32,000 nt of DNA. Origin: Candidatus Arthromitus sp. SFB-rat-Yit. GTDB lineage: Bacteria > Bacillota > Clostridia > Clostridiales > Clostridiaceae. The stretch spans positions 420,001 through 452,000 of the forward strand of contig NC_016012.1 in assembly GCF_000283555.1 (NCBI RefSeq), in the 5' to 3' direction. A program made the position numbers and the translations under genes. Below the pieces are notes generated by a model, which did not search any database, was not told where the DNA came from, and saw nothing but the letters and a program-made list of their open reading frames with translations. Shown piece by piece: positions 14,955 through 31,467 of this stretch (the first letter of the stretch is position 1; the number at the start of each line of letters is the position of its first letter).

Positions 14955-14956
14955 CG

Positions 14957-14996
14957 AGGATGCGTTGATTTTATATCAATGCATCCTTTATTTATT
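14957..14996 (+). terminator. Intrinsic terminator after the AI-2E transporter gene
   Basis: 13-bp stem AGGATGCGTTGAT (14957-14969) / ATCAATGCATCCT (14975-14987) with one G-T pair and a 5-nt loop, followed by TTTATTTATTT. Confidence 0.8.
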
Positions 14997-15089
14997 TAAT
15001 TGAATAAATTAGTTAAATAATTTGATTGATTAGTATCAATAATAAATAGTGTAGTGATTAAATTTTTACATAGAGTTAAGGTGATATTT

Positions 15090-18000
15090 ATGAGTGATAG
15101 TTTGAAAAGATATCAAGATGTTTCTATTAATTTTAGTTTAGATAATAAGACAATATATTTAGATAACATTTATAATGAGGATTTTTTAGACTTATATGTT
15201 TTGAAAAGTTATAACGAAGATATTTATTCTAATTTTATTAATTTTATATTTTCAGATAGTATTGAGGTATTAAAGATTATTGAGGATCCTTTAACTTGGC
15301 AGAGTGATAAATTATTTAAAATTAAGGAAGAAGTAAATAAAATAAAAAAAGATAAGCTTAGTAAATTTGAGGAAAGCCATGATTTCCCAAATATAAAGGA
15401 TTATGAGATATTTTTGGATAATTTTTATAAAGGCAATGTAAGCAAAAATTTGGATTTAGTAAATATCCAATATAGCAATATGAATAACGTAAGTTTAAAT
15501 TTAGATAAGTTGTGTAAAGGTAATAAAAGAAGTGATTTGTATATAGGATATCCATTTATTGAAGGGTATATTGATAATGTAGGTTTTGTTCGTATGCCAT
15601 TTTTTCTTATACCTGTCGAAGTATTTAGTGAGAATAATGAGTGGTTTATCAGAAAAATGCTTAAAAGAAAGATAAAGATAAATAGGTATTTGATTATTAT
15701 ATTTCAAAGAATTCTTAAACGTAAAAATTTAGAAATTAAACTTGATTATGATTTCAATAGAGATTTTAAAAAAGATGTGTTAAAAGTATCATTAGATTTT
15801 TTAAAAAGTTTAGATATTGGATTTCATAATAATGATGTAATTTTAGACAATAAGTTTGATGAATTTTTGGGTATGATACGGAACTTAGGTAGTGATAAGT
15901 CTGATCTTGATATTAAAAATTATTTAGTTTTGGGTAGGTTTGATGTAATAGGAAATAAGTATGAGGATTATGAATCACTTATTTATACAGATATGTCTAA
16001 AACTCTTGTAGGAAGACTGATTTCTAATGATTGTGATAATAAAGATAATTATAAAGAAGATATATATAAAGAAATTTATGTTAAAGATAAATTGGATTTT
16101 GATCAAAAGAAGTCTATTTGTTTAAGTGATGATAGCTATATTACACTTATAAATTCAAATTTAGATATAGGAAAAGATACTACGGTAACTAATTTTATAT
16201 TTGATAAAATATGTAAAAATAAAAGTTTACTTGTAGTTTCTAAAAATAAGGAATATTTGAAAAAATTATACAATGAATTTTCTTCTACAAAACCTATTAT
16301 TATGGATTTATTTCAAAGCAATTTCTATCAAAAATTTTATAGGAGTTTTGATAGAATGCTTAATTTTAAAAAAAATTCAGATATAACTAGAGAATTTAAT
16401 GAAATTTTGGATGGTATTAATAAGAATTATCGTTTTATAGAAGATTCAAATGAAATTTATAATAAAATAGAAAATTTTGGTTTATCGCTTAAAGATATGT
16501 ATGAGTTAACAATGAATTTAGGTGATAATGATATCGATAAGGTATCGTTTTCTAAATTTAAATTAAATAATCCTGTTTCAGGTTGTACATTTGATGAAAT
16601 TATTGGTGCAATTGATAAAATTAAAGATGAGAATTTAATTGATATTTTTATATCGCATAAAGAGTATTTGAATAAACATAAAATTCTAAATTCTATAAGA
16701 GAAGATTTTAATTTTGATGATGTCAATTTATATTTAGGTAGATTAAAATCACTTAGAGAAAAATATGATAAGTTGTCCTTGGATATTGATCAAAATAAAT
16801 GTAGTGAGAGTGTAGTTGAATTATTTAAGGAAAATAGTTTTACAAAAAATGAGATTATAGATAAGTGTTTTAAATGTAATGAACATTATATTGAATCTGA
16901 TAAGTATGATAATTCTGATGTTTCAGAATTTTGGATTAAAAGTTTATGGTTTGGGAAAAACAATAAAAAAAGTACAGAAGTTAATAAGCGAGCTTTGATA
17001 GATACTGAAATGTATTATGAGGCTGTAAAAAAGATTGATTTTGATATAAGTTTTATTAAAGATATAGTAAAGCATGATAAATTTGAATTTATCAGGGAGA
17101 GGGTATTTAGTTTTAACGATATAACTTATTTTTTAGATAATTTAATAGAAATGATGGATAGTTTTCACGAATTTATAGAGTATAGTTATAAAATTAAAAA
17201 TTTTACCACACTTGTGAATGATATCTTGGAGTATGTATATAACAACTCAATTAGCGAGAAAATGATGAAAGATAATTTAGATAAAATTTTAAAATTTTCT
17301 ATATTTGTAAATATTTCAAGAAGACATAGTAAACACGGTGATGCACTTGAAAATTATAAAATGGTTGATAGATATTTTAACAATCTTATAGAATTATTTG
17401 ATAAAAGAGCGAGTGTATTAGAAAAATTCATACTAAATAATGTTATGAGTGAAGCGAAAGAGAGTTTAATTGGTACGGATGATAAAATAAACAAAAATGA
17501 TTTTTCGAATATTTCCAAATATTTAATTAAAGATTTTATAAATACTTTTAATAAAGAATGTTTAAAATTATTTCCATGCTTTTTAGTTGATTACGAAGAA
17601 GTATTTTCTAGAATACCTTTAATTGAAGGTTTATTTGACTATGTAGTTTTTGTAGATGGGCACAATTATTTTTTAGAGGAAATTATACCTATAGTATATA
17701 GAGGGAAAAAGATGGTTATATTTGGTAGCGATAACCAAATTGATTGTAGTAGTAGGAGTTATAATATAATATCTCGTGATGTTATAGAAGTTTCAAATAA
17801 TGTATTTAAATTTTTGGGTGATAAATTTAATAGAGTAGATTTAAAATATACGTATACATCTGGTAATGAAATTTTTAGAGATATATCAAATTGTTTATTC
17901 AAAACAAAAGATATTATTTCGTTACCTAAGGATAGAAAATACTCATATATGGATAATCCGTTTATGATATTTACTATAGGCAATAAAGATATAGAAAATA

Positions 18001-19010
18001 TAAATGAATATGAAGCGAAATTTGTTGTAGATCTTTTGTTCAAGCATTTAAAAGTTAAAGAATACGAGGAATCCATTGGGATAGTTACAATAAATAGAAA
18101 TCATGCAGATTTAATTAAAAATGTAATCAAGGATAGATTAAAGTTAGATGAAGAATTTAATTTTTTGTATAATAAGGAGTGTAAAAAATACAAATCAAAT
18201 GATGGAATATATATAACAAGCATTTCTGAAATTTCATATAAGAAGATAGATATTGTAATATTTTCTTTAGGTGGCGAGAGAAATCTAGAAAATGAGATAG
18301 AAATTAAATTTAATGATATAGAAAATCAAAATTGTAGAAATAAATTAAACATGTTTTTGATGATGACTCAATGTGAAATGGATATAGTTACATCACTTAG
18401 TATAAGCGATATAGAAAATAAGGAATATTTTAATGAAAATATAAATGTTTTGAAGAAATATTTAAACTATGCTAATGAAATTTATAGTGGTAATATGATT
18501 AAAGTTATGGATGAATTAAATTATGGTGAGAAATTTGATAATAAATCTACCAAGATATTAGATATTATACATGATAAGCTAGTTGATAGAGGACTTATTG
18601 TAGAGAAAAATTTTGGAACGCAATTTTACAAATTTGATTTTGCAATATATGACAAAGATCTTAAAAAGTATATTTTATTTGTGGAATTTGAATCTAGTAT
18701 AATTCAAAAATTTAAAGATAAACCAGAAAGATACGTAGATTGTTTTATTTATTTTGATAAACTTGGATACAATGTTTTAAAAATTTGGAGCAGAGATTTA
18801 TGGAGCGATATAGATTTCCAGGTTGAAAATATAATTTATAATTATTTTTTAGTTAGAGATAAATTATTGAAATTGAGGTCTAAAAATATTTTAGTAGAAA
18901 ATTTAATTAATAAACATACGATCTTAAGTAAATTTGTAGATATTATTGAAAATAGACGAATAGAGTTGATTTGTGAAAATAGTGGAAATAAAAGTTTGAT
19001 AAAAAGATAG
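15090..19010 (+). CDS. Giant DUF4011 / SF1 (Upf1-like AAA_11/AAA_12) helicase-related protein with C-terminal DUF559/Vsr-like endonuclease-fold domain; catalytic motifs degenerate
   Basis: DUF4011-like core 'YIGYPFIEGY..VRMPFFLIPVEV'. Helicase-collinear blocks 'LDFDQKKSI', 'SLLVVSKNKEYLKKL', 'KKMVIFGSDNQ', 'IGIVTINRNHADLIKNVI', 'IDIVIFSLG'. C-terminal 'YKFDFAIYD..YILFVEFES..LGYNVLKIWSRDLW'. RBS AAGGTGA lies 7 nt before ATG 15090; the ORF-track start 15054 is a GTG upstream. Confidence 0.6.
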   Translation: MSDSLKRYQDVSINFSLDNKTIYLDNIYNEDFLDLYVLKSYNEDIYSNFINFIFSDSIEVLKIIEDPLTWQSDKLFKIKEEVNKIKKDKLSKFEESHDFPNIKDYEIFLDNFYKGNVSKNLDLVNIQYSNMNNVSLNLDKLCKGNKRSDLYIGYPFIEGYIDNVGFVRMPFFLIPVEVFSENNEWFIRKMLKRKIKINRYLIIIFQRILKRKNLEIKLDYDFNRDFKKDVLKVSLDFLKSLDIGFHNNDVILDNKFDEFLGMIRNLGSDKSDLDIKNYLVLGRFDVIGNKYEDYESLIYTDMSKTLVGRLISNDCDNKDNYKEDIYKEIYVKDKLDFDQKKSICLSDDSYITLINSNLDIGKDTTVTNFIFDKICKNKSLLVVSKNKEYLKKLYNEFSSTKPIIMDLFQSNFYQKFYRSFDRMLNFKKNSDITREFNEILDGINKNYRFIEDSNEIYNKIENFGLSLKDMYELTMNLGDNDIDKVSFSKFKLNNPVSGCTFDEIIGAIDKIKDENLIDIFISHKEYLNKHKILNSIREDFNFDDVNLYLGRLKSLREKYDKLSLDIDQNKCSESVVELFKENSFTKNEIIDKCFKCNEHYIESDKYDNSDVSEFWIKSLWFGKNNKKSTEVNKRALIDTEMYYEAVKKIDFDISFIKDIVKHDKFEFIRERVFSFNDITYFLDNLIEMMDSFHEFIEYSYKIKNFTTLVNDILEYVYNNSISEKMMKDNLDKILKFSIFVNISRRHSKHGDALENYKMVDRYFNNLIELFDKRASVLEKFILNNVMSEAKESLIGTDDKINKNDFSNISKYLIKDFINTFNKECLKLFPCFLVDYEEVFSRIPLIEGLFDYVVFVDGHNYFLEEIIPIVYRGKKMVIFGSDNQIDCSSRSYNIISRDVIEVSNNVFKFLGDKFNRVDLKYTYTSGNEIFRDISNCLFKTKDIISLPKDRKYSYMDNPFMIFTIGNKDIENINEYEAKFVVDLLFKHLKVKEYEESIGIVTINRNHADLIKNVIKDRLKLDEEFNFLYNKECKKYKSNDGIYITSISEISYKKIDIVIFSLGGERNLENEIEIKFNDIENQNCRNKLNMFLMMTQCEMDIVTSLSISDIENKEYFNENINVLKKYLNYANEIYSGNMIKVMDELNYGEKFDNKSTKILDIIHDKLVDRGLIVEKNFGTQFYKFDFAIYDKDLKKYILFVEFESSIIQKFKDKPERYVDCFIYFDKLGYNVLKIWSRDLWSDIDFQVENIIYNYFLVRDKLLKLRSKNILVENLINKHTILSKFVDIIENRRIELICENSGNKSLIKR

Positions 19011-19033
19011 TAGTGAAACTACTATCTTTTTTT
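19006..19033 (+). terminator. Intrinsic terminator after the helicase-like gene
   Basis: GATAGTAGT (19006-19014), loop GAA, ACTACTATC (19018-19026), followed by seven T (19027-19033). The stop codon lies in the stem. Confidence 0.8.
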
Positions 19034-19049
19034 GATTACAAAATTATTT

Positions 19050-19105
19050 CAAAATATTGAATAAAGTGTTGAAATGTGTTAATATATTGTTTACAAAATA
19101 TTGAA
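19050..19105 (+). promoter_or_regulatory. Direct repeat pair CAAAATATTGAA flanking the essC core promoter (operator-like)
   Basis: Identical 12-mers at 19050-19061 (overlapping the -35) and 19094-19105 (just after the -10/+1). A partial third copy TTACAAAAT is at 19036-19044. Confidence 0.4.
19057..19085 (+). promoter_or_regulatory. Sigma-A type promoter of essC-esaB
   Basis: TTGAAT (19057-19062), 17-nt spacer, TAATAT (19080-19085). It lies ~40 nt upstream of the essC ATG. RBS AGAGGGGA at 19115-19122. Confidence 0.55.
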
Positions 19106-19124
19106 AAATTTTTAAGAGGGGATT

Positions 19125-22100
19125 ATGAAAAGGGTAAAAATTTATGTTTTCTATAAAAATAAATTTATAGAATGGGATATTGAAAGTTTCCAAAATAGTT
19201 CTATTGAATTTTTATTGGATAAAGATATAACTTTATTTTCTAGAAATTATTCATTTCATTTTGAATATGAGAATGGGAATTATATATTAAAACCTTTTAA
19301 TGAATTTGAACTCATCTATAAAGATCAAAAATTAAATTCAAAATTAATTTTAGATGGAGATGTAATTATCTGTGATTTAATTGGGGATAAATCTAAGGTT
19401 ATTTTATTTATACAGTATGAGGATTTTTTAGGTTGTAGTTTTTATAAGTGTAAGTTAAACGGGATTTCACAGATAAAGATTGGGAAAAATAATTATGCAG
19501 ATATCACATATTCTAACTCTAATTTATTAGATTACCATATTATTTTAAATTTTAAGAAAAATAGTGCAGAGCTTATAAGCAATGCTGGAGGATGTTATTT
19601 AAATAATATAAAGACTTTAAGTGGAAAAGTTTTATTTGGAGATATAATTTTTATTTATGGGCTCAAGATCGTTTATTTAGGGGATTATATTGCTGTAAAT
19701 AATCCAAATGGAAAAGTAACTTCTAGCTTAAAGTTTTCTAATGATGATATTGAAGAAATGGAAATGATAAAATCTACTAATATTAGTAGAGGAGTCGAGG
19801 ATGATAGCAAGGTTTACTTGGATTTAGATGAAATTATAGAATTTCGAGTTGATCCTCCTGTTGTTCGTGATTATAATCTTTTGAAAATTTTATGTATTGG
19901 ATTAATTCCACTAAGTGTGATAGGCGTAGTAATTTGTGTTTTGACTTTCAATTATATAGAGGCAAGTTATATTTATTCTATTATAGTTGGGGCAGCAGGT
20001 TCTTTGATTGTTATACTTCTTTTGTGTTTGTTAATGTATTTTAGAGTTAATAATACAAGGCAAAAAGAGAAGTACGATTCATATTTAAATGATAAATTTA
20101 AAGAAATATCGGTGATTAAAGAAGAATGGGTGAGAGCTTTATCCCAAAGATATCCAAAAGCTATTGACTGTTATGAAAGCGTTATTAATTTTGATAATAA
20201 TGTTTGGAATAGGGTTTGTAGAGAAAATAATTTGTTGAGCTTGACAATAGGGCAAAGTGAATCTTATTTTGGAAATTTAAAAATTTTAACTGAAAATGCT
20301 AAAGATAATAAACTTTTCGATTCCCATAAGATACTTAAGAAAGTACCGATAACCATACCTCTTAAAAAGATAAATAAACTTTCGGTTGTATCTGATATGC
20401 ATAAAAATTATGATGTATTTAAAAATTTTGTAGTGCAACTTACAAGCAATAATTCATATAAAGATTTAAAAATTGTTACAATTGCATCAAAAGATCATGA
20501 AGAAAACATAAATTTTGTAAAATTAATCCCGCATGCTTATTCTGATAAAAATGATTTTAGATATTTTGCCGTAAACGATGATGAAGTAATTGACGTTTTA
20601 CATAATTTACGCAAAATAATACGAGAGAGAAAAAATATTCTAAAACAAAATCCTAAGTACGTTTTTAGAACATCTTATATTGTTTTCTTATTCTATAATT
20701 TTACAATTCCGATGGATCAGTTTTTAAATTATATAAAAAGTGTTGGAAGTCCATTAAATATTCATTTTGTAATTTTCACAATTAACAAAAAAGATATTCC
20801 TGAATGTTTTAAATATATACTTGATGTGGCTGAAAAAGATCAGACTCTTTATAATGTCCGAGAAAATGGAATTAAGAAGGTTGTTTTACCTTATGACTAT
20901 GGTGATATTGCTAATTTGATTGATATGGACAAGTTCACAAATGCATTATCTAAGATAAAATTAATTACAGATGGAATGGTTAAAGGATTTGAAAGTAAAT
21001 CAATTTATGATTTATATGAAATTTCTTCAGTTAAAGATTTAAATATTGAAGAAAGATGGAGAAAAAATAAATTATTAAGTTCTCTGAATATACCAGTTGC
21101 TACTAAGGATTTAAAAGATGTATTTACGCTTAATATACATGAAAAACATGATGGTATAAATGGAATAATATTTGGCGAAAGTGGCGTTGGAAAGACTGAA
21201 CTATTGAAAAATATAATACTTTCATATTCAATAAATTTAAGTCCAAATTTGTTGAATTTTATAATTGTTAAATCAAACTACAATATTAAATTTAATAATT
21301 TTATACATCTCCCTCATGTCCTCGATATTTTGGACAAGGAGGATCTTTCAGAAAAGAATAGATTGATAGATCTTATTAAAAATGAAGTTGGTAAGAGGCA
21401 AAAATTATTCGATAGTATAGGTGTTAAAGATATAGATTCATATTTAAACATCTATGAAAGTTATTCAGATATTACGGTGATTTCACATTTAGTCATTGTT
21501 ATAGATGATGTTTGTGATGATGATATTAATTTTATAGATGAGTTATCTCAAATGTATTCATCAATGCTTAGTACAGGGATTCATATTATTGTATCTTCTA
21601 ATTGTGTTAGCTCATTTGTTGAAAAAGAGAATATTTTAAATAATTTTGATTTTAAAATATGTTTTAGGTTATCCGATGTTAAAGATTTATTTGAAATTAT
21701 GGGAGAAAATGAAACCTTAAATTCGAATTCTACGGGTAAATTTAATGTAAGATTGTCGGATAGTGTTGTAGTTAATAATGTTCAAAATGTATATTCAAAT
21801 TATTATGTTGAAGATCATACAGAACAATTAGGAATAGAACTTGTAAATAATTGTGGTACTGTTAATAAAAAAATCGTAAGGTCAAATGAAATAAATGAAT
21901 TTGTACTTCAAGAGGATGAAATAATAAATGAAATTATAAATCTTTCATCTGACATAAATATGGTGAATATGTCGCCTTTTAATAGTTCACTTAGATATTT
22001 AAGCCTTCATGATTTATCTGGATATAATAGTAATTTTAATGGATTTATGTGGACTGAGTCGGATAAGCCTTGTGATGCAATAGTTGGGGTTGTTGATGAT

Positions 22101-23414
22101 CCGAAGTATCAAGTTCAAAGATTTTTAAGTGTGGATTTTAAAAATGTAGGAAATTTATTTGTATTTGGATCACCTGGAACAGGTAAAAGTAATCTTATTA
22201 AAACTCTTATTTATTCTCTATGTTGTGAATATAAAGAAAGCAATTTAAATGTATATATTGTCGATCCTAATACTAGAAATACAGATTGTTTCGGATATGC
22301 ACCACATGTTAAAAATATAGCATATACAAAAAATGAGATTAATTCTTTATTTAGAAAAATATTGGAAGAATTTGAACTTAGAAAAAAGATATTTGATAAT
22401 TTAGATATTTCAACAATTGATCAATATAAATTGAGAGTTGGGGAAGAACTACCGAATATAGTTTTAACAATTGATAGTATACAGGAAATTTTAGATGATA
22501 AATGGGATTATATGAAATTTATCAGAATGATAGCAAGAGATGGTAAATTTTATGGCATTTATGTTTGCATAACTTCATCTGAGTATGGAAACACAGAAAT
22601 TAATTTAAGTGAGTATTTTGATAATAAGTTTGTATTGAGATTTAACGACGAGTCCCTATATAAAAAAATATTAGGAAAAGATTATAAGATAGATTCCAAA
22701 TTTAAAGGAAGAGGTATAGTTAATTATAGTGATTCATTAGGAGAGAGGATTCTTGAATTCCAAATAGCCTTGCCAATGATGAGTAATAATGACGTTGATC
22801 TTAACAATAAATTGAAGCGTTTATTTACGCATATGAATGAAGTTAATAATAAAATTTATCTTGGATCAGAAATTATGGATGCATTAGAGTGTGAAGAAAT
22901 TAAAGAAGATAACTCGAATAATAACGATAATGATCAAGTGAAAAATTTAAATAGTTATTTAAATGATTTTATAGATAATTATAATAATTTGTGTGTTGTA
23001 TGTGATTTGGAAAATAATGATGATGTTTTGTATGATATAAATAAAGCTGTGGGAGAAAAAGGGATTAAATCTTACTTTTTTCAAAACCGAGATTTAAATG
23101 AAAATGAAGTAGAAGAATTAATAAATTGGATGGATTCTATAAGTGACGAGAGTGTTTTTGTTATTATAAGTAATATAGAGGGATTAATATCTTCATGTAA
23201 TGATAGAATGATTGAGTTATTTAATTCTATTTTGAAGAGGGAATCTAGAAAAATGTATTTCATTACATCTATATATAAAACTAGTAATGTAAATGAGAAG
23301 TGTTCAGAGGTAATAGATTTATTGATTTCAAATGGGGCAAGTATGATTATAAATGATGATAGAAGTGCAACGATTTTATATAAATCTCAAAAGGATCTTA
23401 TTAAGATAAATTAG
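19125..23414 (+). CDS. essC: Type VII secretion (T7SSb) FtsK/SpoIIIE-family ATPase EssC/YukB-like
   Basis: N-terminal FHA-like modules ('IKIGKNNYADITY...GCYLNN...LFGDIIFIYGLKIVYLG'). Two TM helices (LLKILCIGLIPLSVIGVVICVLTF; SYIYSIIVGAAGSLIVILLLCLLMYF). EssC-typical 'YPKAIDCYESV...VWNR'. P-loop domains with GESGVGKT and GSPGTGKS, and 'HLPHVLDILDKED' / 'KRQKLF' blocks. Confidence 0.9.
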   Translation: MKRVKIYVFYKNKFIEWDIESFQNSSIEFLLDKDITLFSRNYSFHFEYENGNYILKPFNEFELIYKDQKLNSKLILDGDVIICDLIGDKSKVILFIQYEDFLGCSFYKCKLNGISQIKIGKNNYADITYSNSNLLDYHIILNFKKNSAELISNAGGCYLNNIKTLSGKVLFGDIIFIYGLKIVYLGDYIAVNNPNGKVTSSLKFSNDDIEEMEMIKSTNISRGVEDDSKVYLDLDEIIEFRVDPPVVRDYNLLKILCIGLIPLSVIGVVICVLTFNYIEASYIYSIIVGAAGSLIVILLLCLLMYFRVNNTRQKEKYDSYLNDKFKEISVIKEEWVRALSQRYPKAIDCYESVINFDNNVWNRVCRENNLLSLTIGQSESYFGNLKILTENAKDNKLFDSHKILKKVPITIPLKKINKLSVVSDMHKNYDVFKNFVVQLTSNNSYKDLKIVTIASKDHEENINFVKLIPHAYSDKNDFRYFAVNDDEVIDVLHNLRKIIRERKNILKQNPKYVFRTSYIVFLFYNFTIPMDQFLNYIKSVGSPLNIHFVIFTINKKDIPECFKYILDVAEKDQTLYNVRENGIKKVVLPYDYGDIANLIDMDKFTNALSKIKLITDGMVKGFESKSIYDLYEISSVKDLNIEERWRKNKLLSSLNIPVATKDLKDVFTLNIHEKHDGINGIIFGESGVGKTELLKNIILSYSINLSPNLLNFIIVKSNYNIKFNNFIHLPHVLDILDKEDLSEKNRLIDLIKNEVGKRQKLFDSIGVKDIDSYLNIYESYSDITVISHLVIVIDDVCDDDINFIDELSQMYSSMLSTGIHIIVSSNCVSSFVEKENILNNFDFKICFRLSDVKDLFEIMGENETLNSNSTGKFNVRLSDSVVVNNVQNVYSNYYVEDHTEQLGIELVNNCGTVNKKIVRSNEINEFVLQEDEIINEIINLSSDINMVNMSPFNSSLRYLSLHDLSGYNSNFNGFMWTESDKPCDAIVGVVDDPKYQVQRFLSVDFKNVGNLFVFGSPGTGKSNLIKTLIYSLCCEYKESNLNVYIVDPNTRNTDCFGYAPHVKNIAYTKNEINSLFRKILEEFELRKKIFDNLDISTIDQYKLRVGEELPNIVLTIDSIQEILDDKWDYMKFIRMIARDGKFYGIYVCITSSEYGNTEINLSEYFDNKFVLRFNDESLYKKILGKDYKIDSKFKGRGIVNYSDSLGERILEFQIALPMMSNNDVDLNNKLKRLFTHMNEVNNKIYLGSEIMDALECEEIKEDNSNNNDNDQVKNLNSYLNDFIDNYNNLCVVCDLENNDDVLYDINKAVGEKGIKSYFFQNRDLNENEVEELINWMDSISDESVFVIISNIEGLISSCNDRMIELFNSILKRESRKMYFITSIYKTSNVNEKCSEVIDLLISNGASMIINDDRSATILYKSQKDLIKIN

Positions 23415-23432
23415 TAATTTGGGGGAATATAC

Positions 23433-23678
23433 ATGGTTTATTTACAGGTATATGTGCCGGATAAAAATAGGTTTTTTGATTATAGAGTATCGAGAAAAAT
23501 AAATATTTGTAATTTAAAAAGCTTAATTGTTGAATCAATATATAATATAAAATGTGATGATGAGTTTATAAGGAATAATTACTCGTTAATAGATTTTAAT
23601 TGTAGAAGAAGATTGAAAGATGATATAAATTTGTGTAATTATTCTATTTATAATGGATATAAATTTTTGTTAATATAG
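23433..23678 (+). CDS. esaB: YukD/EsaB-like ubiquitin-fold T7SS accessory protein
   Basis: 81 aa, starting 18 nt after essC with a GGGGGA RBS. The pattern 'LQVYVPDKNRFFDYRVSRKINICNLKSLIVESI....L.DDINLCNYSIYNGYKFLLI' matches the YukD layout: a beta-strand start, 'D.R.s....i..L', and a C-terminal 'i.nGd.l.l'. Confidence 0.65.
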   Translation: MVYLQVYVPDKNRFFDYRVSRKINICNLKSLIVESIYNIKCDDEFIRNNYSLIDFNCRRRLKDDINLCNYSIYNGYKFLLI

Positions 23679-23685
23679 AACCAAT

Positions 23686-23723
23686 AAGAGCATGCTTGAA
23701 TGTAAGCATGCTCTTTAATTTTT
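23686..23723 (+). terminator. Strong intrinsic terminator after esaB
   Basis: Perfect 12-bp stem AAGAGCATGCTT (23686-23697) / AAGCATGCTCTT (23704-23715) with a 6-nt loop, followed by TAATTTTT. Confidence 0.85.
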
Positions 23724-23770
23724 AAACATATATAGTAAGTGAATATTTTTATTTTATTTTTGGAGGTAGA

Positions 23771-25285
23771 ATGATTAATAAAATAAAAAATCTTATCATG
23801 ATAAGTTTTATTGCTATACTAATGAGTAATTTTAATGTGATTTCGGGTGCTAAAAATAATATAGGAACAGAGATTTTAAACAGTTATAATACTGGGGAGT
23901 TAATTTATTTAATAAATGAGGATGGGGAATTAGTTAGATTAAATAGAAATATGAAAGATATAGTTCCTGAAAATATGCCTAAACTTCTATCTATTAATGT
24001 TTATGAGGATGATTTTTTTGCACTTACTAGGGAACATGAACTTATTTCTTCTGAGAATTTTAAAACATCAAAAAATATAAGTAAGATTGATAAAAAATTT
24101 TTATTAACATTAGATGGGAAAGTATCTTCATTTGATATAAAAAATTCTAGAGTATTTGGGGATTTTAAAAATGTTAAAGATATAAAAGCTCTAAGTGATA
24201 ATGCAGTTGTGATATATGATGTTCAAGGTAATATAAGTATTGTTAATATTGGAAATTCCAAAATAATGAGCATAAAAAATTTATCAGATATAGAAGATGT
24301 AAATATTTTTAATGAAAATTTGATATTGGTTATAAAAAAAGATGGAACTATGATGGGATTTGGTGATGATTATAATAAGGTTTCCAAAATTATAGAATCA
24401 ATAAAGAACGCAAAAAAATTTATACACCAAATGGATAATTTATATGTTGTAACTTATGACAATAAAGCAATACCAATAATTGAAAATGGTTTTAAAGCAC
24501 CTGAAGAGTATTTGAGAGATATATCTGATATTACTATTAGTAATTTTTCAAATAGTGAAGGCGAATTTTACAAATCTTATTTTGTGACTACTGAAGGAAA
24601 AGTTTCTTATTATATACAAAGTGATAATGAGATAAGTAGTTTTAATAAACAGAAAATTGATTATATTAATGGGTTTGATAATGTAGAAAAAGTTTATGAA
24701 TCAGGGTATTTGACTATAGTACTTCATAGAGATGGTTCTATAACGATACCTTTTAATATTCATCATGAATTGAATGGAATTACAGGTGTAACTAATATTG
24801 AACTTAAAAATCAAAGTTATGTTGTTTATTTAGATAATGGACATGCTATAACATCGCTTGATAATATTATACTAAATGATAGAGGTTCATTTGATAAACG
24901 TGAAGAGATTTCAGATTTATATGAATATTTTAATGTTATTTCGTTAAATACTGTAAATAGGGAAATTAATAAAGAAGATTTTGAAAATATGAGAGAGTCT
25001 ATTTTAAATGACAAGGAATCATTTAAAAATGTTATAAGAAGTTTGTGCTTAGATAGAAAATTCATCTTGATAGATATTGGGTATGATGAAATAATAGAGA
25101 GATTATATTATTCTGTTTTGAATGTCAAACCAAGTTCTGATGAATATAATCATATTTTATATGAAATAATTGAAAAATCAGAGAAAGATAACATGGGCAA
25201 GGAACAAATTATAATTCAGATTGTGAATTATATGTTTGAAAATCCATTATTTGAGGATATATTTAAGAAACTTACTCAAACATAG
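23771..25285 (+). CDS. Secreted beta-propeller-like (RCC1-like repeat) protein with DUF4214-like C-terminal domain
   Basis: Sec signal peptide MINKIKNLIMISFIAILMSNFNVISGA. Repeated 'hhhh..DG.h' blades (LINEDGELVRL, LTLDGKVSSF, VIKKDGTMMGFG, VTTEGKVSYY, VLHRDGSITIPF, VYLDNGHAITS). C-terminal 'IIERLYYSVLNVKPSSDEYNHIL...IVNYMFENPLFEDIF' resembles DUF4214. GGAGG RBS. Confidence 0.55.
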   Translation: MINKIKNLIMISFIAILMSNFNVISGAKNNIGTEILNSYNTGELIYLINEDGELVRLNRNMKDIVPENMPKLLSINVYEDDFFALTREHELISSENFKTSKNISKIDKKFLLTLDGKVSSFDIKNSRVFGDFKNVKDIKALSDNAVVIYDVQGNISIVNIGNSKIMSIKNLSDIEDVNIFNENLILVIKKDGTMMGFGDDYNKVSKIIESIKNAKKFIHQMDNLYVVTYDNKAIPIIENGFKAPEEYLRDISDITISNFSNSEGEFYKSYFVTTEGKVSYYIQSDNEISSFNKQKIDYINGFDNVEKVYESGYLTIVLHRDGSITIPFNIHHELNGITGVTNIELKNQSYVVYLDNGHAITSLDNIILNDRGSFDKREEISDLYEYFNVISLNTVNREINKEDFENMRESILNDKESFKNVIRSLCLDRKFILIDIGYDEIIERLYYSVLNVKPSSDEYNHILYEIIEKSEKDNMGKEQIIIQIVNYMFENPLFEDIFKKLTQT

Positions 25286-27630: not shown

Positions 27631-28194
27631 ATGAGGATTATGATTGTAGATGATGAAAGAAAATTGGTTAATATACTCAAGACTTATTTTGAAAAAGAGG
27701 GATTTGATGTAATTTATTCATTTAACGGTGAGGATGCTATAGATAAATTTTATTCAAATAAAATAGATTTGGTTATTTTGGATTGGATGATTCCTGGGTT
27801 AAGTGGAAATGAAGTATGTAGGTACATAGATGAATATATTAAGAAACCTTTTGATATTAGATTTTTAATTATGAGAGTAAATAAATTGCTAAATTTTGAT
27901 AAGGATATTAGCTTTAAAGATATTAGGATTAATATAAGAGATAAAGTGGTGTATAAAAATGATAAAAATTTAAATTTAACTAAGTTGGAGTTTGATCTAT
28001 TAAGTTATTTTATAAGAAATAAGGGAGTTATATTATCAAGGGATAGGATAATTAATTAAGTTTGGGGATATGACTATGAGGGAGATTATAGGACAGTAGA
28101 TACACATATTAGAAGACTTAGAAGCAAAATAGGGGAAAATAGCATAAAAACACATAGGGGAATGGGATATACTTTGGAGGTTGATGTAGATTAA
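27631..28194 (+). pseudogene. OmpR-family response regulator, inactivated (in-frame TAA plus internal receiver-domain deletion)
   Basis: The receiver start 'MRIMIVDDE...DLVILDWMIPGLSG' jumps from 'EVCRYI' straight to 'DEYIKKPF', so beta4-alpha4 is missing. The wHTH part 'LTKLEFDLLSYF...ILSRDRIIN' hits TAA at 28057-28059. It then continues in the same frame as '[37 protein letters not shown]' to TAA 28192-28194. Confidence 0.8.
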
Positions 28195-29146
28195 GATTAA
28201 GAATAGAGTTTTTATAGGCAATTTATTTTTTATGGACAAGTTTTATATATTGGAAAAAAGAAAATTATTAGATGAGGTTTATAAGATTATATCTTCAAAA
28301 GATATAAATACCGTTTTAGGTACAATTAGTGATATAGAGAAAGAAACATCTACAGTTATTGTTTATACGGAGAATATAGAGGATATTGATATTTTAAATG
28401 AGTATATTTTTACATCATTTTTTAAAAAAGATATAAAACTAAATAAATTTTGGATTACAGAGGATGCAATAAATAAATTAAATATAACGAGTGTAAATAA
28501 TATATACAATCAAGAAATTGTTAAGTATAAATTTTATACTAAAATGTTTAAAAAAGATGATTACATATTTGTTGTTGGAACAACTTTATCAGATGTAAAT
28601 GAAATAATTGAGATAATAAATAAATTTATAGTATTAATAAGTTTATTTTCTATCTTTATTAATTGGATACTTGTGAATGTAAATATAGGTATAATTACAA
28701 AACATATTAAAAATATAAAATATCTGTTAAGGGATATTGAGTCCTTAAATTTTAGGACGGAAGGTATAAAAATGTGTGACGAGATGGGGGATTTATCTAG
28801 AAGTATAAATCAAATGAGTGATAGTTTAAGGAAAGCTCATGGGGAAATAAATTCTCAAAATCTTAAATTAAAGGAATTGCTGTGTAATGTTGCTCATGAG
28901 ATAAAGACCCCCTTGTCTATTATAAAAGTATATGCCCAAGGAATATGGATTTGATGATGGAACTTATTCAGATATTATACACGGTGAAATTGATAAAGTT
29001 GATGGATTGATTGAGAATTTAATATTTTGATTAATACGGATCACTTAAATATTGTTTTAGAGAATTTATTAACTAATGCTATAAAGTATACCGCTAATAA
29101 AAAAATAAGTATTGATTTATTAATATTAGATAGATATGTAATTTAA
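28184..29146 (+). pseudogene. Sensor histidine kinase remnant (nonsense at codon 2, frameshift, deletions, ATPase domain truncated)
   Basis: GGAGG then ATG 28184 is followed directly by TAG, then in frame '[14 protein letters not shown]' with no full TM1. HAMP-like segment and H-box 'VAHEIKTPLSIIKVYAQGI' follow. A frameshift near 28935 leads into 'EYGFDDGTYSDIIHGEIDKVDGLIENLIF', then further stops. The N-box 'LNIVLENLLTNAIKYT' at ~29042-29092 ends at TAA 29144-29146 without G1/G2 boxes. Confidence 0.7.
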
Positions 29147-29194: not shown

Positions 29195-30697
29195 TTGAAA
29201 AGATTATGTTTAATATTAATTATTATTTTTGGTATGATGTCATGTAATAATCTAAATATAAATAAGGAGATTTCTGGTAATGAAGAAATTTTAAGCATGC
29301 AGAAAGATCATTTTAAATCGGATTTTGATATTGAAGTAAATCCAGAAACTTTTGCTTTAATGGTTAATGTAAACGGGGTTAGTGAGTATGTATCAAATCA
29401 ACTAACTTCAAGAAAAGTTTCAAACTTTAAGGAAGAAAATGGTAAGATATTATGGAGTTATGAAGAAGAAGGAATTAATATTTTAGTTGAAAATAAGGAA
29501 GAGTATATAAATGTATCAATTGAAGGTTAAGACAATAATTTTATTTGGCCAAGTATTTCGGGTGATGAGTATATTTTGACTATTGGACAAGGTAAAAAGA
29601 TACCGTCAGATGATGAAACATGGAAGAAATATTTTAATCAAATTGAATCTATAAATATACTTAGTAATGTTTTATTATTAAAAAACTTTTATAATCCTGA
29701 TATATTTACAGATAAAATTAGTTTTTAAAGTGATTTAGAAAAAGGAATAGAAAATCTTAATGGAATCGAACTTGTAGAGTTTAATAAAAAAGTTTTAAAG
29801 TCAAAACTTAAAGATATGGTTGATCCTGTAGAAGATTGGGCAGATTCGGTTACAGTAGATATTATAGAGGATATGAAAAATTCAGGAATATCAAATCTTT
29901 TAATAAATTTTGATGACTGGAGAACCGGTTTTGCTAAATCAGAATTTGTAGAAAATGCTAATGAATATGGATACTTAATTGGAACATATGATTCATATCA
30001 CTCAATACATAAAAGCGGTGAAGAGCAATGGTTAACTGCTACATTTGAAGATACAACATTATTTGATGAAGCAACTGTTACAAACAAAAAAGGCGAGAAA
30101 ATAGAAGGGTTTAATGGAGTAGGCAGAAAATTAAATCCAAAACTTGCAATGCCTAGTGTGAGAAGTAGAGTTGAGGAAATTTTGGATACAGGTATAGAAT
30201 TTAATACGTGGTTCTTAGATACAGATGGCACTGGAGAAGTGTTTGATGATTACTCTGAAAATCATATAACGACTGAGGAAGAAGATATAAATGCAAGAAT
30301 TGAGAGAGTTAAGTATTTGAATAATGAAAAGGATATGATTGTTGGAACTGAGGGTGGAAATGATTTTATAAATAAATATGTTGCATATGCTCATGGGATA
30401 GATATGGGTCCTTTTAAATGGATGGATAAAGATTTAAAAGATAAAAATAGTGAATATTATCTTGGTTAATACTATTCACTAACAGGTGGAGTTGATAACC
30501 TTATGTCATATAGATGAAGGAGAATGGGAAAAAATAGAAATTTAATTATAAATCATTATAATGTGTGGGGTGATTTTTCTAAGAAAGTTATAAATAAAGG
30601 GATGATATATTTTGAGAATTTAGTAACTGATGGTTCTGTTAAGATGACTTAATATGGTGATGATGGAGAATTGATACATTATACACCTCGAAGATAA
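29195..30697 (+). pseudogene. Lipoprotein gene (possibly glycoside-hydrolase-like) broken by five in-frame stop codons
   Basis: TTG 29195 with a GAGGTGAAG RBS; lipobox 'FGMMSC'. One reading frame runs 29195-30697. It is interrupted only by TAA 29528, TAA 29726, TAA 30467, TGA 30515 and TAA 30650, with coherent protein-like sequence across every stop (e.g. 'VSIEG*DNNFIWPSISGDEY', 'EYYLG*YYSLTGGVDN'). The hydrolase guess rests only on 'WFLDTDGTGE..VGTEGGNDF' and is weak. Confidence 0.65.
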
Positions 30698-30783: not shown

Positions 30784-31467
30784 ATGAGTAATCAAGCCGT
30801 TATAAGAATAAAGAATTTTCAAGCTGATTATGATTTTAGAATTTGTAATTTGAGTGTGAGTATTTATTGTATTGGTAAGGGAAATTTAGTTTTGGATGTG
30901 ACAAATAAACAAACTAAGGAATTAGTCCTTGAAAATGTAGAAGTTAGTGATGGTACTCAGTCAATTCAATGTGATTTGGATAATGGAATATATAATTTTA
31001 AGATATATGAAGTTTTTAATAAAAAAGATAGTTCTAGCAGATACTTGTTATATGAAGCAAATTTTACATACAGTAATCCGTATGATGCTAAAGATGGAGA
31101 AATAATTATTAAAAATATTAAATATAAGGGTGATGAATACGCACTTAGATATTATTACAAAATTACAGATATAATTCCTAGTGAAGAAAATGAGAATGTA
31201 TTTTATGCTAAGATGGTTGGGTATGATAAGTTTGATATATTAAAAAGTATAAATGATCCATATGAAATTAAGATTACTTATTTAGATGAAAAGCAAAAGG
31301 AAATTTTTATAGAGTTTGAAGAAGATGGGGAGTATATGTACTTTTTATTTCACAGAGATAAGAGAATGCTTATTAAAGAAGAGGATAAAAATGACCAAAT
31401 AAATTATGACAGATATTTTGAGTTAACGGACGATGAAAGTAGTTATTTAACTACAAATTATAGATAG
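30784..31467 (+). CDS. Hypothetical cytoplasmic protein, no family recognised
   Basis: 227-aa ORF with a strong RBS, its own promoter candidate and a strong terminator. No signal peptide or TM segment. The composition looks beta-rich and Tyr/Asp/Glu/Lys-rich. Confidence 0.7.
   Translation: MSNQAVIRIKNFQADYDFRICNLSVSIYCIGKGNLVLDVTNKQTKELVLENVEVSDGTQSIQCDLDNGIYNFKIYEVFNKKDSSSRYLLYEANFTYSNPYDAKDGEIIIKNIKYKGDEYALRYYYKITDIIPSEENENVFYAKMVGYDKFDILKSINDPYEIKITYLDEKQKEIFIEFEEDGEYMYFLFHRDKRMLIKEEDKNDQINYDRYFELTDDESSYLTTNYR

What the first reader, a model, noticed from the sequence alone, without database searches (positions are those of the whole stretch)
15090..19010. 1306-codon DUF4011/SF1-helicase/REase-fold protein in which every catalytic motif is replaced, yet the ORF is intact
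Seen: an uninterrupted ~3.9-kb ORF sits in sequence so AT-rich that the antisense frames close after 60-105 codons. The collinear architecture matches DUF4011 + Upf1-like SF1 helicase + C-terminal DUF559/Vsr-like fold. The signatures, however, are substituted. Walker A GPPGTGKS becomes NSNLDIGKD (16152-16178). Motif II DEASQ becomes DGHNY (17655-17669). Motif III GDxxQLPP becomes GSDNQIDC (~17724-17747). Motif V/VI 'FQGxE...TRA(R/K)' becomes 'ISYKK...MTQCE' (~18331-18378). Nuclease 'ExDG' becomes 'EFES' (~18680). Established: these motifs are required for ATP hydrolysis and translocation in SF1 helicases. Inference: the fold is conserved but the protein is probably catalytically dead, a pseudo-helicase/pseudo-nuclease retained for a scaffold, sensor or decoy role. 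It is transcriptionally separate from essC but immediately upstream of it.
Basis: partly seen in the sequence, partly recalled or inferred. Interest (0 to 1): 0.65.

Follow-up and report, generated by a model that had tools for sequence, protein, structure and literature searches.

The report
ATPase-dead helicase-nuclease kept by gut SFB
Segmented filamentous bacteria, gut symbionts that shape host immunity, have kept for their whole known history a 1306-residue descendant of an anti-phage-type helicase-nuclease whose ATP-motor residues are gone but which is still under strong purifying selection, so it must now do something other than unwind nucleic acid.

Summary
The ORF (15090-19010, +, 1306 aa) is real. 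It is a full-length, collinear homologue of the DUF4011 / Upf1-like SF1B helicase / Vsr-like (MTES_1575) nuclease family, which includes the anti-phage proteins Hhe and ProA and the PADLOC candidate PDC-S37.

The window almost certainly comes from Candidatus Arthromitus SFB-rat-Yit. The gene sits in the same chromosomal slot in every SFB-lineage genome recovered (9 distinct lineages, 40-75% identity).

Helicase motifs I, II, IV, V and VI have lost their catalytic residues in all SFB lineages. Those positions now vary freely within the clade. The Walker A lysine, the Q-motif and most of motif III persist. The neighbouring EssC-like ATPase keeps perfect P-loops, so AT bias alone does not explain the loss.

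dN/dS is 0.07-0.18 overall and below 0.35 in every domain except the weakly conserved C-terminal tail. An AlphaFold model (pLDDT 80) matches Dna2, Upf1, IGHMBP2 and Aquarius. The pseudo-helicase reading is therefore well supported.

The pseudo-nuclease reading is not. The nuclease is the best conserved domain and keeps four acidic residues (ExD becomes ExE, a conservative change).

The gene is monocistronic, with a conserved terminator and a conserved essC promoter. Canonical relatives never neighbour essC. This is a new variant of a known kind, of moderate interest.

The parts
15078..15092 (+). Shine-Dalgarno AAGGTGAT plus ATG start of the gene
   Evidence: AAGGTGATA..ATG is invariant in nine orthologous loci (alignment A6). 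The sequence was read.
15090..19010 (+). Complete CDS, 1306 aa: the SFB-lineage ATPase-degenerate DUF4011 / SF1B / Vsr-like protein
   Evidence: ORF list and translation. Homologues. dN/dS 0.07-0.18.
15090..16049 (+). N-terminal DUF4011-like domain (aa 1-320), including the GYPF.EGY...P.FL.P...N core
   Evidence: Aligns with DUF4011-positive homologues. 64% of family-conserved columns are retained. AF2 pLDDT is 81, with no match to any solved structure.
16050..16409 (+). RecA-like lobe 1A, first part (aa 321-440). It holds the retained Q-motif (D336, Q339), the degenerate Walker A NSNLDIGKDTT (aa 355-365, 16152-16184; K362 kept) and a degenerate motif Ia
16410..17549 (+). Helical insertion domain (aa 441-820) carrying SFB-specific invariant patches (aa 481-540, including NNPVSGCTF, and aa 721-757)
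   Evidence: SFB-specific conservation scan. Long helices in the AF2 model.
17550..17789 (+). RecA-like lobe 1A, second part (aa 821-900). Motif II DEASQ becomes VDGHN (aa 855-859, 17652-17666). Motif III GDxKQLxP becomes GSDNQIDC (aa 879-886, 17724-17747)
17790..18404 (+). RecA-like lobe 2A (aa 901-1105). Motif IV HYRS becomes TYTS (17850-17861). Motif V VQGDERD becomes ISYKKID (18231-18251). Motif VI RLNVAxxRA becomes KLNMFLMMT (18342-18368)
   Evidence: Only 35% of family-conserved columns are retained here. The domain is folded with high pLDDT.
18555..18839 (+). C-terminal Vsr-like (MTES_1575 / DUF559-type) nuclease-fold domain (aa 1156-1250). D1183, E1199, E1201 and E1213 are kept
   Evidence: Pfam MTES_1575 E = 1.7e-7. 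Residue table. Most conserved domain, omega 0.09-0.13.
18840..19007 (+). C-terminal helical tail (aa 1251-1306), weakly conserved
   Evidence: No invariant columns (0 of 41) and the highest omega, 0.33-0.49. Predicted as a long helix.
19001..19033 (+). Intrinsic-terminator-like hairpin (13-bp stem, 5-nt loop) plus T-run, overlapping the stop codon
   Evidence: A hairpin plus T-run sits at the same place in all nine lineages, with different stem sequences. The sequence was read.
14956..14988 (+). Upstream boundary: terminator-like hairpin of the preceding AI-2E transporter gene

Best explanation
This is a vertically inherited core gene of the segmented-filamentous-bacteria lineage. It descends from a stand-alone DUF4011 / Upf1-like SF1B helicase / Vsr-like nuclease of the kind common in Clostridia, the family that contains the anti-phage proteins Hhe and ProA. 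In the SFB ancestor the protein lost the ability to hydrolyse ATP and hence to translocate or unwind. Since then the former catalytic positions have drifted, while the two RecA-like lobes, the N-terminal DUF4011 domain, the helical insertion and the Vsr-like domain have been kept folded by purifying selection. I propose that it now works as a non-motor nucleic-acid-binding platform. The dead RecA cleft, possibly still able to bind a nucleotide through the retained Q-motif and lysine in some lineages, and the N-terminal domain would hold DNA or RNA statically. The new lineage-specific conserved surface on the helical insertion would contact a partner or ligand. Any remaining chemistry would lie in the C-terminal Vsr-like domain, which keeps its acidic cluster. 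In design this resembles RecC and AddB, which are SF1-derived dead helicases used as scaffolds. Shown here: homology, fold, loss of motor residues, selection, lineage restriction and monocistronic organisation. Inferred: static binding, a partner surface, residual nuclease activity and the biological role. My best guess for the role is a domesticated defence-type nuclease used in handling foreign or chromosomal DNA.
For: Homology: phmmer gives E = 4e-91 to a canonical member over 94% of the length, with collinear alignment. PADLOC PDC-S37 scores 2.8e-23 and NCBIfam ProA 1.2e-22. The canonical Clostridial relatives carry DUF4011 + AAA_11 + AAA_12 + MTES_1575 and hit Hhe, ProA and PDC-S37 strongly.

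Fold: AF2 pLDDT 80 / pTM 0.72, with Foldseek hits to Aquarius, Dna2, Upf1, IGHMBP2 and SETX at probability 1.0.

Motor loss: 116 of 209 family-conserved columns are changed. 76 of them are variable within the SFB clade, including S363, D855, E856, Q859, R923, Q1049, E1052, R1085 and R1092.

Control: the adjacent EssC-like protein keeps two canonical G..G.GK[ST] loops in nearly all lineages (one lineage keeps one).

Selection: omega is 0.136 (L001-L038), 0.177 (L039-L040) and 0.065 (L004-L009) by NG86, and 0.07-0.12 by YN00. This is similar to EssC and about twice the housekeeping flanks. All domains are below 0.35 except the weakly conserved C-terminal tail (0.33-0.49).

Lineage: all SFB-type orthologues sit in one syntenic slot. 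The clade is isolated in a 1.84-billion-protein library, with scores of 917 and 810 bits followed by a drop to 323.

New constraint: SFB-only invariant patches lie at aa 481-540 and 721-757, and 22 former family-conserved positions are re-fixed to a new residue.

Nuclease: D1183, [DE]1199, [DE]1201 and E1213 are present in 11/11 SFB sequences.
Against: No biochemical or expression data exist. K362, T365, N368 and the Q-motif are invariant or nearly so, and some lineages keep a near-canonical SPIGTGK loop and D[DE] in motif II. Nucleotide binding, or even slow hydrolysis, in those lineages therefore cannot be excluded from sequence alone. The Vsr-like domain has lost D1215 in 9/11 SFB sequences, R1231 is Lys, and the His at position 1206 is absent, so the nuclease may be dead as well. 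The comparison with RecC and AddB is one of design only; no partner motor was identified. AT-driven amino-acid bias contributes to some replacements: Gly/Ala/Arg/Pro columns are retained at 34% against 48% for the others.
Confidence: 0.62

Rival explanations
1. It still has an anti-phage or anti-plasmid defence role like its relatives Hhe and ProA, but works without a motor, for example as an ATP-independent nuclease triggered by a phage component, or as a decoy or sensor for a phage inhibitor of helicase-nucleases.
For: The parent family is a defence family (NCBIfam Hhe_antiphage and antiphage_ProA, PADLOC Hhe and PDC-S37; Hhe is used as a defence system in 10.1101/2024.04.14.589459 and PMC11232893). 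The acidic nuclease residues are kept. The protein diverges faster than its housekeeping flanks, at 40-45% against 60-70% identity.
Against: It is a single-copy, syntenic, vertically inherited gene in every SFB lineage seen, with omega of about 0.1-0.2 and no mobile-element or defence-island neighbours. That is atypical for defence genes. Defence by Hhe-like proteins is expected to need the helicase motor.
Confidence: 0.2
2. It is an accessory factor, regulator or cargo of the adjacent type-VII-like secretion genes (EssC-like ATPase, YukD-like 81-aa protein and a secreted 504-aa repeat protein).
For: It lies immediately upstream of, and co-oriented with, the essC-like gene in all 9 SFB lineages. 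pHel, EssC, p81 and p504 all diverge faster than the flanks. The 81-aa protein gives weak YukD / ubiquitin-like hits.
Against: A structurally conserved terminator follows the gene, and an invariant promoter-like element precedes essC. None of 26 loci with canonical relatives has essC, p81 or p504 within 10 kb. The flanking housekeeping genes are equally syntenic, so adjacency carries no independent information. There is no similarity to known T7SS components. No WXG100-like ORF is present in the window.
Confidence: 0.12
3. It is still an active helicase/ATPase that uses non-canonical residues.
For: K362 is invariant and the Q-motif is retained. Several lineages keep SPIGTGK and D[DE]GH.
Against: The motif IV Arg, the motif V Gln-Gly..Glu and both motif VI Arg residues are missing in all 11 SFB sequences and replaced by variable residues. 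The Walker A Ser/Thr is D, N or I in 10 of 11. In the window protein the Mg-binding Asp of motif II is Val, and a P-loop Gly is Asp.
Confidence: 0.04
4. It is a decaying gene with no function, whose open frame survives by chance or through recent inactivation.
For: Catalytic motifs are lost. The protein diverges faster than its neighbours.
Against: The frames are intact at about 1290-1316 codons in 9 lineages down to 40% identity. Omega is 0.07-0.18. The Shine-Dalgarno sequence and terminator are conserved. In the same window a two-component system does carry a premature stop and a truncation, so this genome does inactivate dispensable genes.
Confidence: 0.02

Closest known systems
DUF4011 / SF1B / Vsr-like helicase-nucleases: anti-phage Hhe (NCBIfam NF042953, PADLOC Hhe), anti-phage ProA (NF058533), PADLOC candidate PDC-S37, and the unnamed ~1300-aa Clostridial subfamily (e.g. 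in Clostridium saudiense, C. bowmanii, C. lacusfryxellense)
   Same: Same collinear architecture and length as the Clostridial subfamily: N-terminal DUF4011-type domain, split RecA 1A with a large helical insertion, RecA 2A, and a C-terminal MTES_1575 Vsr-like domain. Homology is significant and full-length.
   Different: Motifs I, II, IV, V and VI have lost their catalytic residues. Scores are far below the equivalog cut-offs: 79 bits against 1500 for ProA, and no Hhe hit. It is a syntenic core gene of one host-restricted lineage rather than a variable accessory gene. It lacks the C-terminal DUF3320/wHTH extension of ProA/Hhe-type proteins.
Upf1-like SF1B helicases with solved structures (Upf1, IGHMBP2, Sen1/SETX, Dna2, Aquarius)
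   Same: Same helicase-core fold. Foldseek gives probability 1.0, and the family profile matches IGHMBP2, Upf1 and Dna2. Like Dna2, it combines the helicase core with a nuclease-fold domain.
   Different: The ATP-site residues are absent. The nuclease is a C-terminal Vsr-type fold, not the N-terminal PD-(D/E)xK with an Fe-S cluster found in Dna2.
RecC (RecBCD) and AddB (AddAB): SF1-derived inactivated helicases used as scaffolds (comparison from general knowledge; AddAB also appears in the fold search)
   Same: The design principle is shared: an SF1 helicase fold that has lost its motor motifs but is retained under selection, joined to a nuclease-fold domain.
   Different: A different SF1 branch (UvrD-like SF1A against Upf1-like SF1B). 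RecC and AddB work with an active motor subunit and read Chi sequences. No partner motor or recognition sequence is known here. There is no specific sequence relationship.

Membership tests
DUF4011 / SF1B / Vsr-like helicase-nuclease superfamily (Hhe, ProA, PDC-S37 relatives) | Full-length collinear homology to family members | tested here: met
   E = 4e-91 to 2.5e-86 with 94-96% query coverage to P0011 and P0012, which carry all four Pfam domains. Alignment A1. 4003 relatives at E <= 1e-3 in the representative library.
DUF4011 / SF1B / Vsr-like helicase-nuclease superfamily (Hhe, ProA, PDC-S37 relatives) | N-terminal DUF4011 domain | tested here: inconclusive
   The Pfam DUF4011 model gives no hit even at E <= 10. 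The region nevertheless aligns with DUF4011-positive homologues and keeps 64% of their conserved columns, including GYPF.EG and P.FL.P.
DUF4011 / SF1B / Vsr-like helicase-nuclease superfamily (Hhe, ProA, PDC-S37 relatives) | C-terminal MTES_1575 (Vsr-fold) domain | tested here: met
   PF18741 E = 1.7e-7 over positions 5-93 of 96. The 31.6 bits are below the gathering score of 38.2. All orthologues carry the precomputed PF18741 hit.
NCBIfam equivalogs anti-phage ProA (NF058533) and Hhe (NF042953) | Whole-protein score above the curated cut-off (1500 and 2000 bits) | tested here: not met
   ProA scores 79.3 bits over a partial region (aa 682-1249). There is no Hhe hit at E <= 1. The canonical Clostridial relatives also fall short, at 608 and 442-453 bits.
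Catalytically competent SF1B (Upf1-like) helicases | Walker A GxxxxGK[ST] | tested here: not met
   The window protein has SNLDIGKD. Across the clade the first Gly is Ser in 10/11 and the Ser/Thr is D, N or I in 10/11. Only Lys362 is invariant.
Catalytically competent SF1B (Upf1-like) helicases | Motif II DExx(Q) with a Mg-binding Asp and a catalytic Glu | tested here: not met
   The window protein has VDGHN. Other lineages have DDGHG, EDGHE, DEGHE or DNAHE, and the Gln is lost in all.
Catalytically competent SF1B (Upf1-like) helicases | Arginines of motifs IV and VI and the Gln-Gly..Glu of motif V | tested here: not met
   R923 becomes T, P, S, F or L. R1085 becomes K, H or Q in 10 of 11. R1092 becomes M, L or I. 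Q1049 is variable, G1050 becomes Y (11/11), and E1052 becomes K, R, Q or D in 10 of 11.
Catalytically competent SF1B (Upf1-like) helicases | Two-lobed RecA helicase-core fold | tested here: met
   AF2 pLDDT 80. Foldseek hits to Dna2, Upf1, IGHMBP2, SETX and Aquarius with E from 8e-10 to 1e-6 and probability 1.0.
Active Vsr-like / DUF559-type endonucleases | Acidic cluster D...E.D plus downstream ERD and the Vsr-type His | tested here: inconclusive
   D1183, [DE]1199, [DE]1201 and E1213 are kept in 11/11 SFB sequences. D1215 is kept in 2/11 and the His-equivalent (position 1206) is absent. Among 57 helicase-competent relatives only 30 have D1183 and 19 have the His.
Type VIIb secretion system components | Homology to a known T7SS component, or co-transcription with essC | tested here: not met
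   No T7SS family hit in Pfam or NCBIfam. A conserved terminator and a separate conserved promoter lie between the genes. Canonical relatives are not near essC in 26 loci.
RecC / AddB-type dead-helicase scaffolds | Obligate complex with an active SF1 motor subunit, and Chi recognition | not testable with these tools
   No partner was identified in the window. This is a resemblance of design only. AddAB appears at rank 19 in the fold search because of the shared SF1 fold.

The most novel reading that the evidence does not exclude
The dead helicase-nuclease has been recruited to the SFB-specific, rapidly evolving gene block next to it (EssC-like ATPase, YukD-like protein, secreted repeat protein). 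It would act as a component, chaperone or cargo of a minimal type-VII-like export route used in the intimate contact of SFB with the host epithelium. In other words, a defence helicase would have been repurposed for host interaction in an immunologically important symbiont.
Probability: 0.1. Interest if true: 0.75.

Novelty: new variant of a known kind. Interest (0 to 1): 0.45.

Why it matters
Pseudo-enzymes derived from helicases are known (RecC, AddB), but I found no report of one in the DUF4011 / Hhe / ProA branch. The published SFB genome papers I could search mention neither this gene nor the adjacent type-VII-like genes.

SFB have 1.5-1.6 Mb genomes and shed dispensable genes; a neighbouring two-component system in this very window is broken. 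Retention of a 3.9-kb gene with dead motor motifs through the rodent, bird and other host lineages therefore argues for a real, still unknown function in a bacterium that drives Th17 and IgA responses.

The gene also offers a natural series of progressively eroded P-loops: SPIGTGK, then SPIDTGK, then SNLDIGK. Such a series is useful for asking which parts of an SF1B helicase are needed for non-motor roles. The practical importance is moderate, because everything beyond sequence and predicted fold is inference.

Tried and rejected
1. A direct PDB sequence search with the protein found nothing. Only the family profile reached Upf1, IGHMBP2 and Dna2.

It was rerun with aa 101-1300.

4. Literature searches for PDC-S37 found nothing, ProA could not be traced to a paper, and the few DUF4011 / MTES_1575 hits carried no mechanism.

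5. The N-terminal domain model (pLDDT 81) has no significant structural neighbour in the PDB; the best E-value is 0.7.

6. Pfam on the 81-aa and 504-aa neighbours gave only weak YukD / ubiquitin-like hits for orthologues of the former and nothing for the latter.

7. The simple terminator scan missed the hairpin after the gene because the stem absorbs part of the T-run. It was found by reading the sequence and folding the orthologous intergenic regions.

8. AT bias as the sole cause of motif loss was rejected, because the neighbouring EssC-like protein keeps canonical P-loops.

9. The pseudogene reading was rejected on dN/dS.

10. dS is near saturation for pairs at or below 75% amino-acid identity. 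Only the three closest independent pairs were used for omega.

Full report
OBSERVATION

The window holds an uninterrupted + strand ORF from 15054 (GTG) or 15090 (ATG) to 19010. The longest antisense ORFs across it are 65-105 aa, and GC content is about 22%. The ATG at 15090 is preceded by AAGGTGAT, and this Shine-Dalgarno sequence plus ATG is invariant in nine orthologous loci. The protein is therefore 1306 aa.

FAMILY

Pfam on the protein itself gives only sub-threshold hits: MTES_1575 at 1.7e-7 (31.6 bits against a cut-off of 38.2), AAA_12 at 5.9e-4, and nothing for DUF4011 or AAA_11. NCBIfam gives a partial hit to 'anti-phage protein ProA' (1.2e-22) and PADLOC to the candidate system PDC-S37 (2.8e-23).

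A search of 5.8 billion proteins returned two groups:
- Nine clusters of about 1290-1316 aa at 40-75% identity.
- After a large gap, canonical proteins at 20-26% identity, such as P0011 and P0012 (E = 4e-91 and 2.5e-86, 94-96% coverage). These carry DUF4011 + AAA_11 + AAA_12 + MTES_1575.

The alignment is collinear from end to end. A profile of the family matches IGHMBP2, Upf1, Sen1 and Dna2 in the PDB.

An AlphaFold2 model of aa 300-1306 is confident (pLDDT 80, pTM 0.72). Its best structural neighbours are Aquarius, Dna2, SETX, Upf1 and IGHMBP2, and AddAB also appears.

MTES_1575 was defined as a Vsr-family REase fold (PMC3710099). The canonical Clostridial relatives hit PADLOC PDC-S37 and Hhe and NCBIfam ProA and Hhe strongly but below the equivalog cut-offs. 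A Bacteroides hit, P0018, is a bona fide ProA. Hhe is a single-gene anti-phage system annotated as a DUF4011 protein.

ORGANISM AND DISTRIBUTION

The protein's own contig is 1,515,556 bp. This is exactly the genome size listed for SFB-rat-Yit (PMC9482736, Table 1). The 40-45% orthologues come from MAGs named Candidatus Arthromitus and Candidatus Dwaynia gallinarum.

In all SFB-type loci recovered the gene occupies the same slot. The order is FGGY kinase, aldo-keto reductase, AI-2E transporter, a glyoxalase in some lineages, this gene, an EssC-like ATPase, an 81-aa protein, a ~504-aa protein and a cytidylate-kinase-like gene.

In a library of 1.84 billion representatives the clade is isolated. 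Scores of 917 and 810 bits are followed by a drop to 323 bits.

The 26 loci with canonical relatives, from Clostridium, Christensenella and other Clostridia, have no EssC, 81-aa or 504-aa homologue within 10 kb. Their contexts vary.

STATE OF THE MOTIFS

I compared 11 SFB-clade sequences with 57 canonical ones.

| Motif | Canonical | Window protein | Across the SFB clade |
|---|---|---|---|
| I (Walker A) | GPPGTGKSQT | SNLDIGKDTT | First Gly is Ser in 10/11; fourth Gly is G/D/H/Y; Ser/Thr is D/N/I in 10/11; K362 invariant; T365 kept in 10/11 |
| Ia | VSQKxAALD | VSKNKEYLK | Degenerate |
| II | DEASQ | VDGHN | DDGHG, EDGHE, DEGHE, DNAHE elsewhere; Gln always lost |
| III | GDxKQLxP | GSDNQIDC | GDxxQI in most lineages |
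| IV | HYRS | TYTS | Arg lost in all |
| V | VQGDERD | ISYKKID | Gln variable; Gly is Tyr in all; Glu lost in 10 of 11 |
| VI | RLNVAxxRAK | KLNMFLMMTQ | Second Arg lost in all; first in 10 of 11 |

The Q-motif LDxxQ (D336, Q339) is retained.

Of 209 columns that are at least 85% conserved in canonical proteins, 116 differ in the window protein. Of these, 76 are variable within the SFB clade, including every catalytic position listed above, and 22 are re-fixed to a new residue.

Retention of family-conserved columns by domain:
- N-terminal domain: 64%
- RecA1: 48-52%
- RecA2: 35%
- Nuclease: 58%

AT-driven amino-acid bias contributes. Gly/Ala/Arg/Pro columns are retained at 34% against 48% for other columns, and the protein is only 0.8% alanine. 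Bias is not sufficient to explain the losses, because the adjacent EssC-like protein keeps two perfect G..G.GK[ST] loops in nearly all lineages.

I conclude that ATP hydrolysis and translocation were lost in the SFB ancestor and that the site has drifted since. The rodent lineage, which includes this window, has the most eroded P-loop.

THE NUCLEASE DOMAIN

All 11 SFB sequences have D1183, D/E at 1199, D/E at 1201 and E1213, and 9/11 have R1214. D1215 is kept in only 2/11, R1231 is always Lys, and the His-equivalent at position 1206 is absent.

Among the 57 helicase-competent relatives, only 30 have the first Asp and only 19 have the His. The family itself is heterogeneous at these positions.

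The domain is the most conserved part of the SFB protein, with 28% invariant columns and omega of 0.09-0.13. Its activity is open. 'Pseudo-nuclease' is not established.

SELECTION

Codon alignments of three independent pairs with unsaturated dS gave these values:

| Pair | dS | NG86 | YN00 |
|---|---|---|---|
| L001-L038 | about 0.41 | 0.136 | 0.120 |
| L039-L040 | 0.58 | 0.177 | 0.098 |
| L004-L009 | 0.13 | 0.065 | 0.073 |

These values are similar to the EssC-like gene (0.10-0.12) and up to about twice the housekeeping flanks.

Every domain, including both RecA lobes, is below 0.35. The exception is the weakly conserved C-terminal tail, which reaches 0.49 in the most diverged pair. All orthologues have intact frames.

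By contrast, the response regulator downstream in this window carries an internal deletion and a premature stop, and its histidine kinase is truncated. This genome does inactivate dispensable genes. The pseudogene explanation is rejected.

NEW CONSTRAINTS

Positions conserved in at least 90% of SFB sequences but not in canonical relatives cluster in the helical insertion. They lie at aa 481-540 (22 positions, including the invariant NNPVSGCTF) and aa 721-757. This is what one expects of a new interaction surface. That reading is inference.

TRANSCRIPTION UNIT AND THE essC QUESTION

A terminator-like hairpin follows the upstream AI-2E gene (14956-14988). Directly after the stop codon lies a 13-bp hairpin with a T-run (19001-19033). 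All nine lineages have a strong hairpin plus T-run at this place, with different stem sequences.

Downstream, TTGAA, then 17-18 nt, then TGTTAATATA and the ribosome-binding site of the essC-like gene are invariant across lineages. The same lineages share only 40% identity in the protein (window 19057-19085). The two genes therefore have separate, conserved signals.

The EssC-like protein resembles EssC: TIGR03928 at 6e-133 (below the cut-off), FHA-like N-terminus, TM segments and two P-loops. Orthologues of the 81-aa protein give weak YukD / ubiquitin-like hits.

The only link between the dead helicase and these genes is adjacency within a fully syntenic region. All four genes also diverge faster than the flanks. 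This does not amount to evidence of shared function.

MECHANISM

Shown here: homology, fold, loss of motor residues, purifying selection, lineage restriction and monocistronic organisation.

Inferred: the protein acts as a non-motor nucleic-acid-binding platform. It may still bind a nucleotide in some lineages. A new partner surface lies on the insertion domain, and any remaining chemistry is in the Vsr-like domain. The nearest analogues in design are RecC and AddB.

The biological role is unknown. I rank the options as follows:
- A domesticated defence-type nuclease or DNA-handling factor (most likely).
- Continued anti-phage defence without a motor.
- A T7SS-linked role.

NOVELTY

The family and the concept of dead helicases are both known. 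A clade-wide, selected, ATPase-dead derivative of the Hhe / ProA-type family, fixed as a core gene in SFB, is a new variant.

The SFB genome papers I could search mention neither helicases nor type VII or FtsK-like genes. Sporadic single sequences elsewhere in the family also lack Walker A or motif II residues (P0078, P0133, P0143, P0096). Erosion is therefore not unique to SFB, but no other maintained clade was seen among the top 150 representatives.

LIMITS

- There are no experimental data.
- dS is near saturation beyond the closest pairs.
- Model coordinates could not be inspected to check P-loop geometry.
- The metagenome scan failed.
- The rest of the SFB genome could not be searched for an intact paralogue or a partner.

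Noticed in passing
window 19125-25285 (essC-like 19125-23414; 81-aa 23433-23678; 504-aa 23771-25285): This looks like a minimal type-VIIb-like gene block in SFB. It comprises an EssC-like ATPase with two intact P-loops, a YukD / ubiquitin-like 81-aa protein, and a 504-aa protein with an N-terminal signal or TM segment and repeat-rich sequence. No WXG100-like ORF is present anywhere in the window. All three genes evolve faster than the flanks. They are not mentioned in the SFB genome papers searched.
   Followed up: partly
window 19057-19124: A promoter-like element (TTGAAT, 17 nt, TGnTAATAT) and a leader / ribosome-binding site lie upstream of the essC-like gene. They are nearly invariant across SFB lineages whose proteins are only 40-50% identical (alignment A5), so they are more conserved than the coding sequence. 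The simple promoter scan did not report the element.
   Followed up: partly
window 27631-28954: The two-component system downstream appears pseudogenised in this genome. The response regulator has an internal deletion of about 28 codons and an in-frame stop (142-aa ORF against 212 aa in the closest relative). The histidine kinase ORF stops at 240 aa against about 425 aa in relatives.
   Followed up: partly
window 14955-15089 versus L001 9472-9837 and L004 9403-9765: A 120-aa glyoxalase / bleomycin-resistance-like gene lies on the opposite strand between the AI-2E transporter and the helicase-like gene in most SFB lineages. It is absent from this window and from L039 and L040.
   Followed up: no
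window 29816-30466 and 30784-31467: The GH129-like glycoside hydrolase ORF covers only profile positions 2-199 of 324, and an unassigned 227-aa ORF follows it. This may be a split or truncated gene.
   Followed up: no
proteins P0078, P0133, P0143, P0096 (representative search): Isolated members of the canonical family elsewhere also lack key ATPase residues. Examples are Walker A Lys changed to Cys or Arg, and motif II DGASQ, EEAVQ or DDASD. Motor erosion therefore recurs in this family. Whether these sequences are maintained or are pseudogenes is unknown.
   Followed up: no
canonical family alignment, positions equivalent to window aa 1183 and 1206: Roughly half of the helicase-competent relatives lack the first Asp (Ser or Pro in 27/57) and two-thirds lack the Vsr-type His (His in 19/57) of the C-terminal nuclease fold. 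Many 'active helicase' members may therefore carry an inactive or differently wired nuclease domain.
   Followed up: no
window 15090-16139 (aa 1-350): The DUF4011-type N-terminal domain models confidently (pLDDT 81; a long helical hairpin plus a beta-sheet core containing the GYPF.EG / P.FL.P motif). It has no significant structural neighbour among solved structures.
   Followed up: yes
L001 and L038 10001-10036 (proteins P0002, P0003): The database gene calls for the closest orthologues start 10 codons upstream (MKFLHRVKVIF...) of the ATG that carries the invariant Shine-Dalgarno sequence. This is probably a mis-called start.
   Followed up: partly
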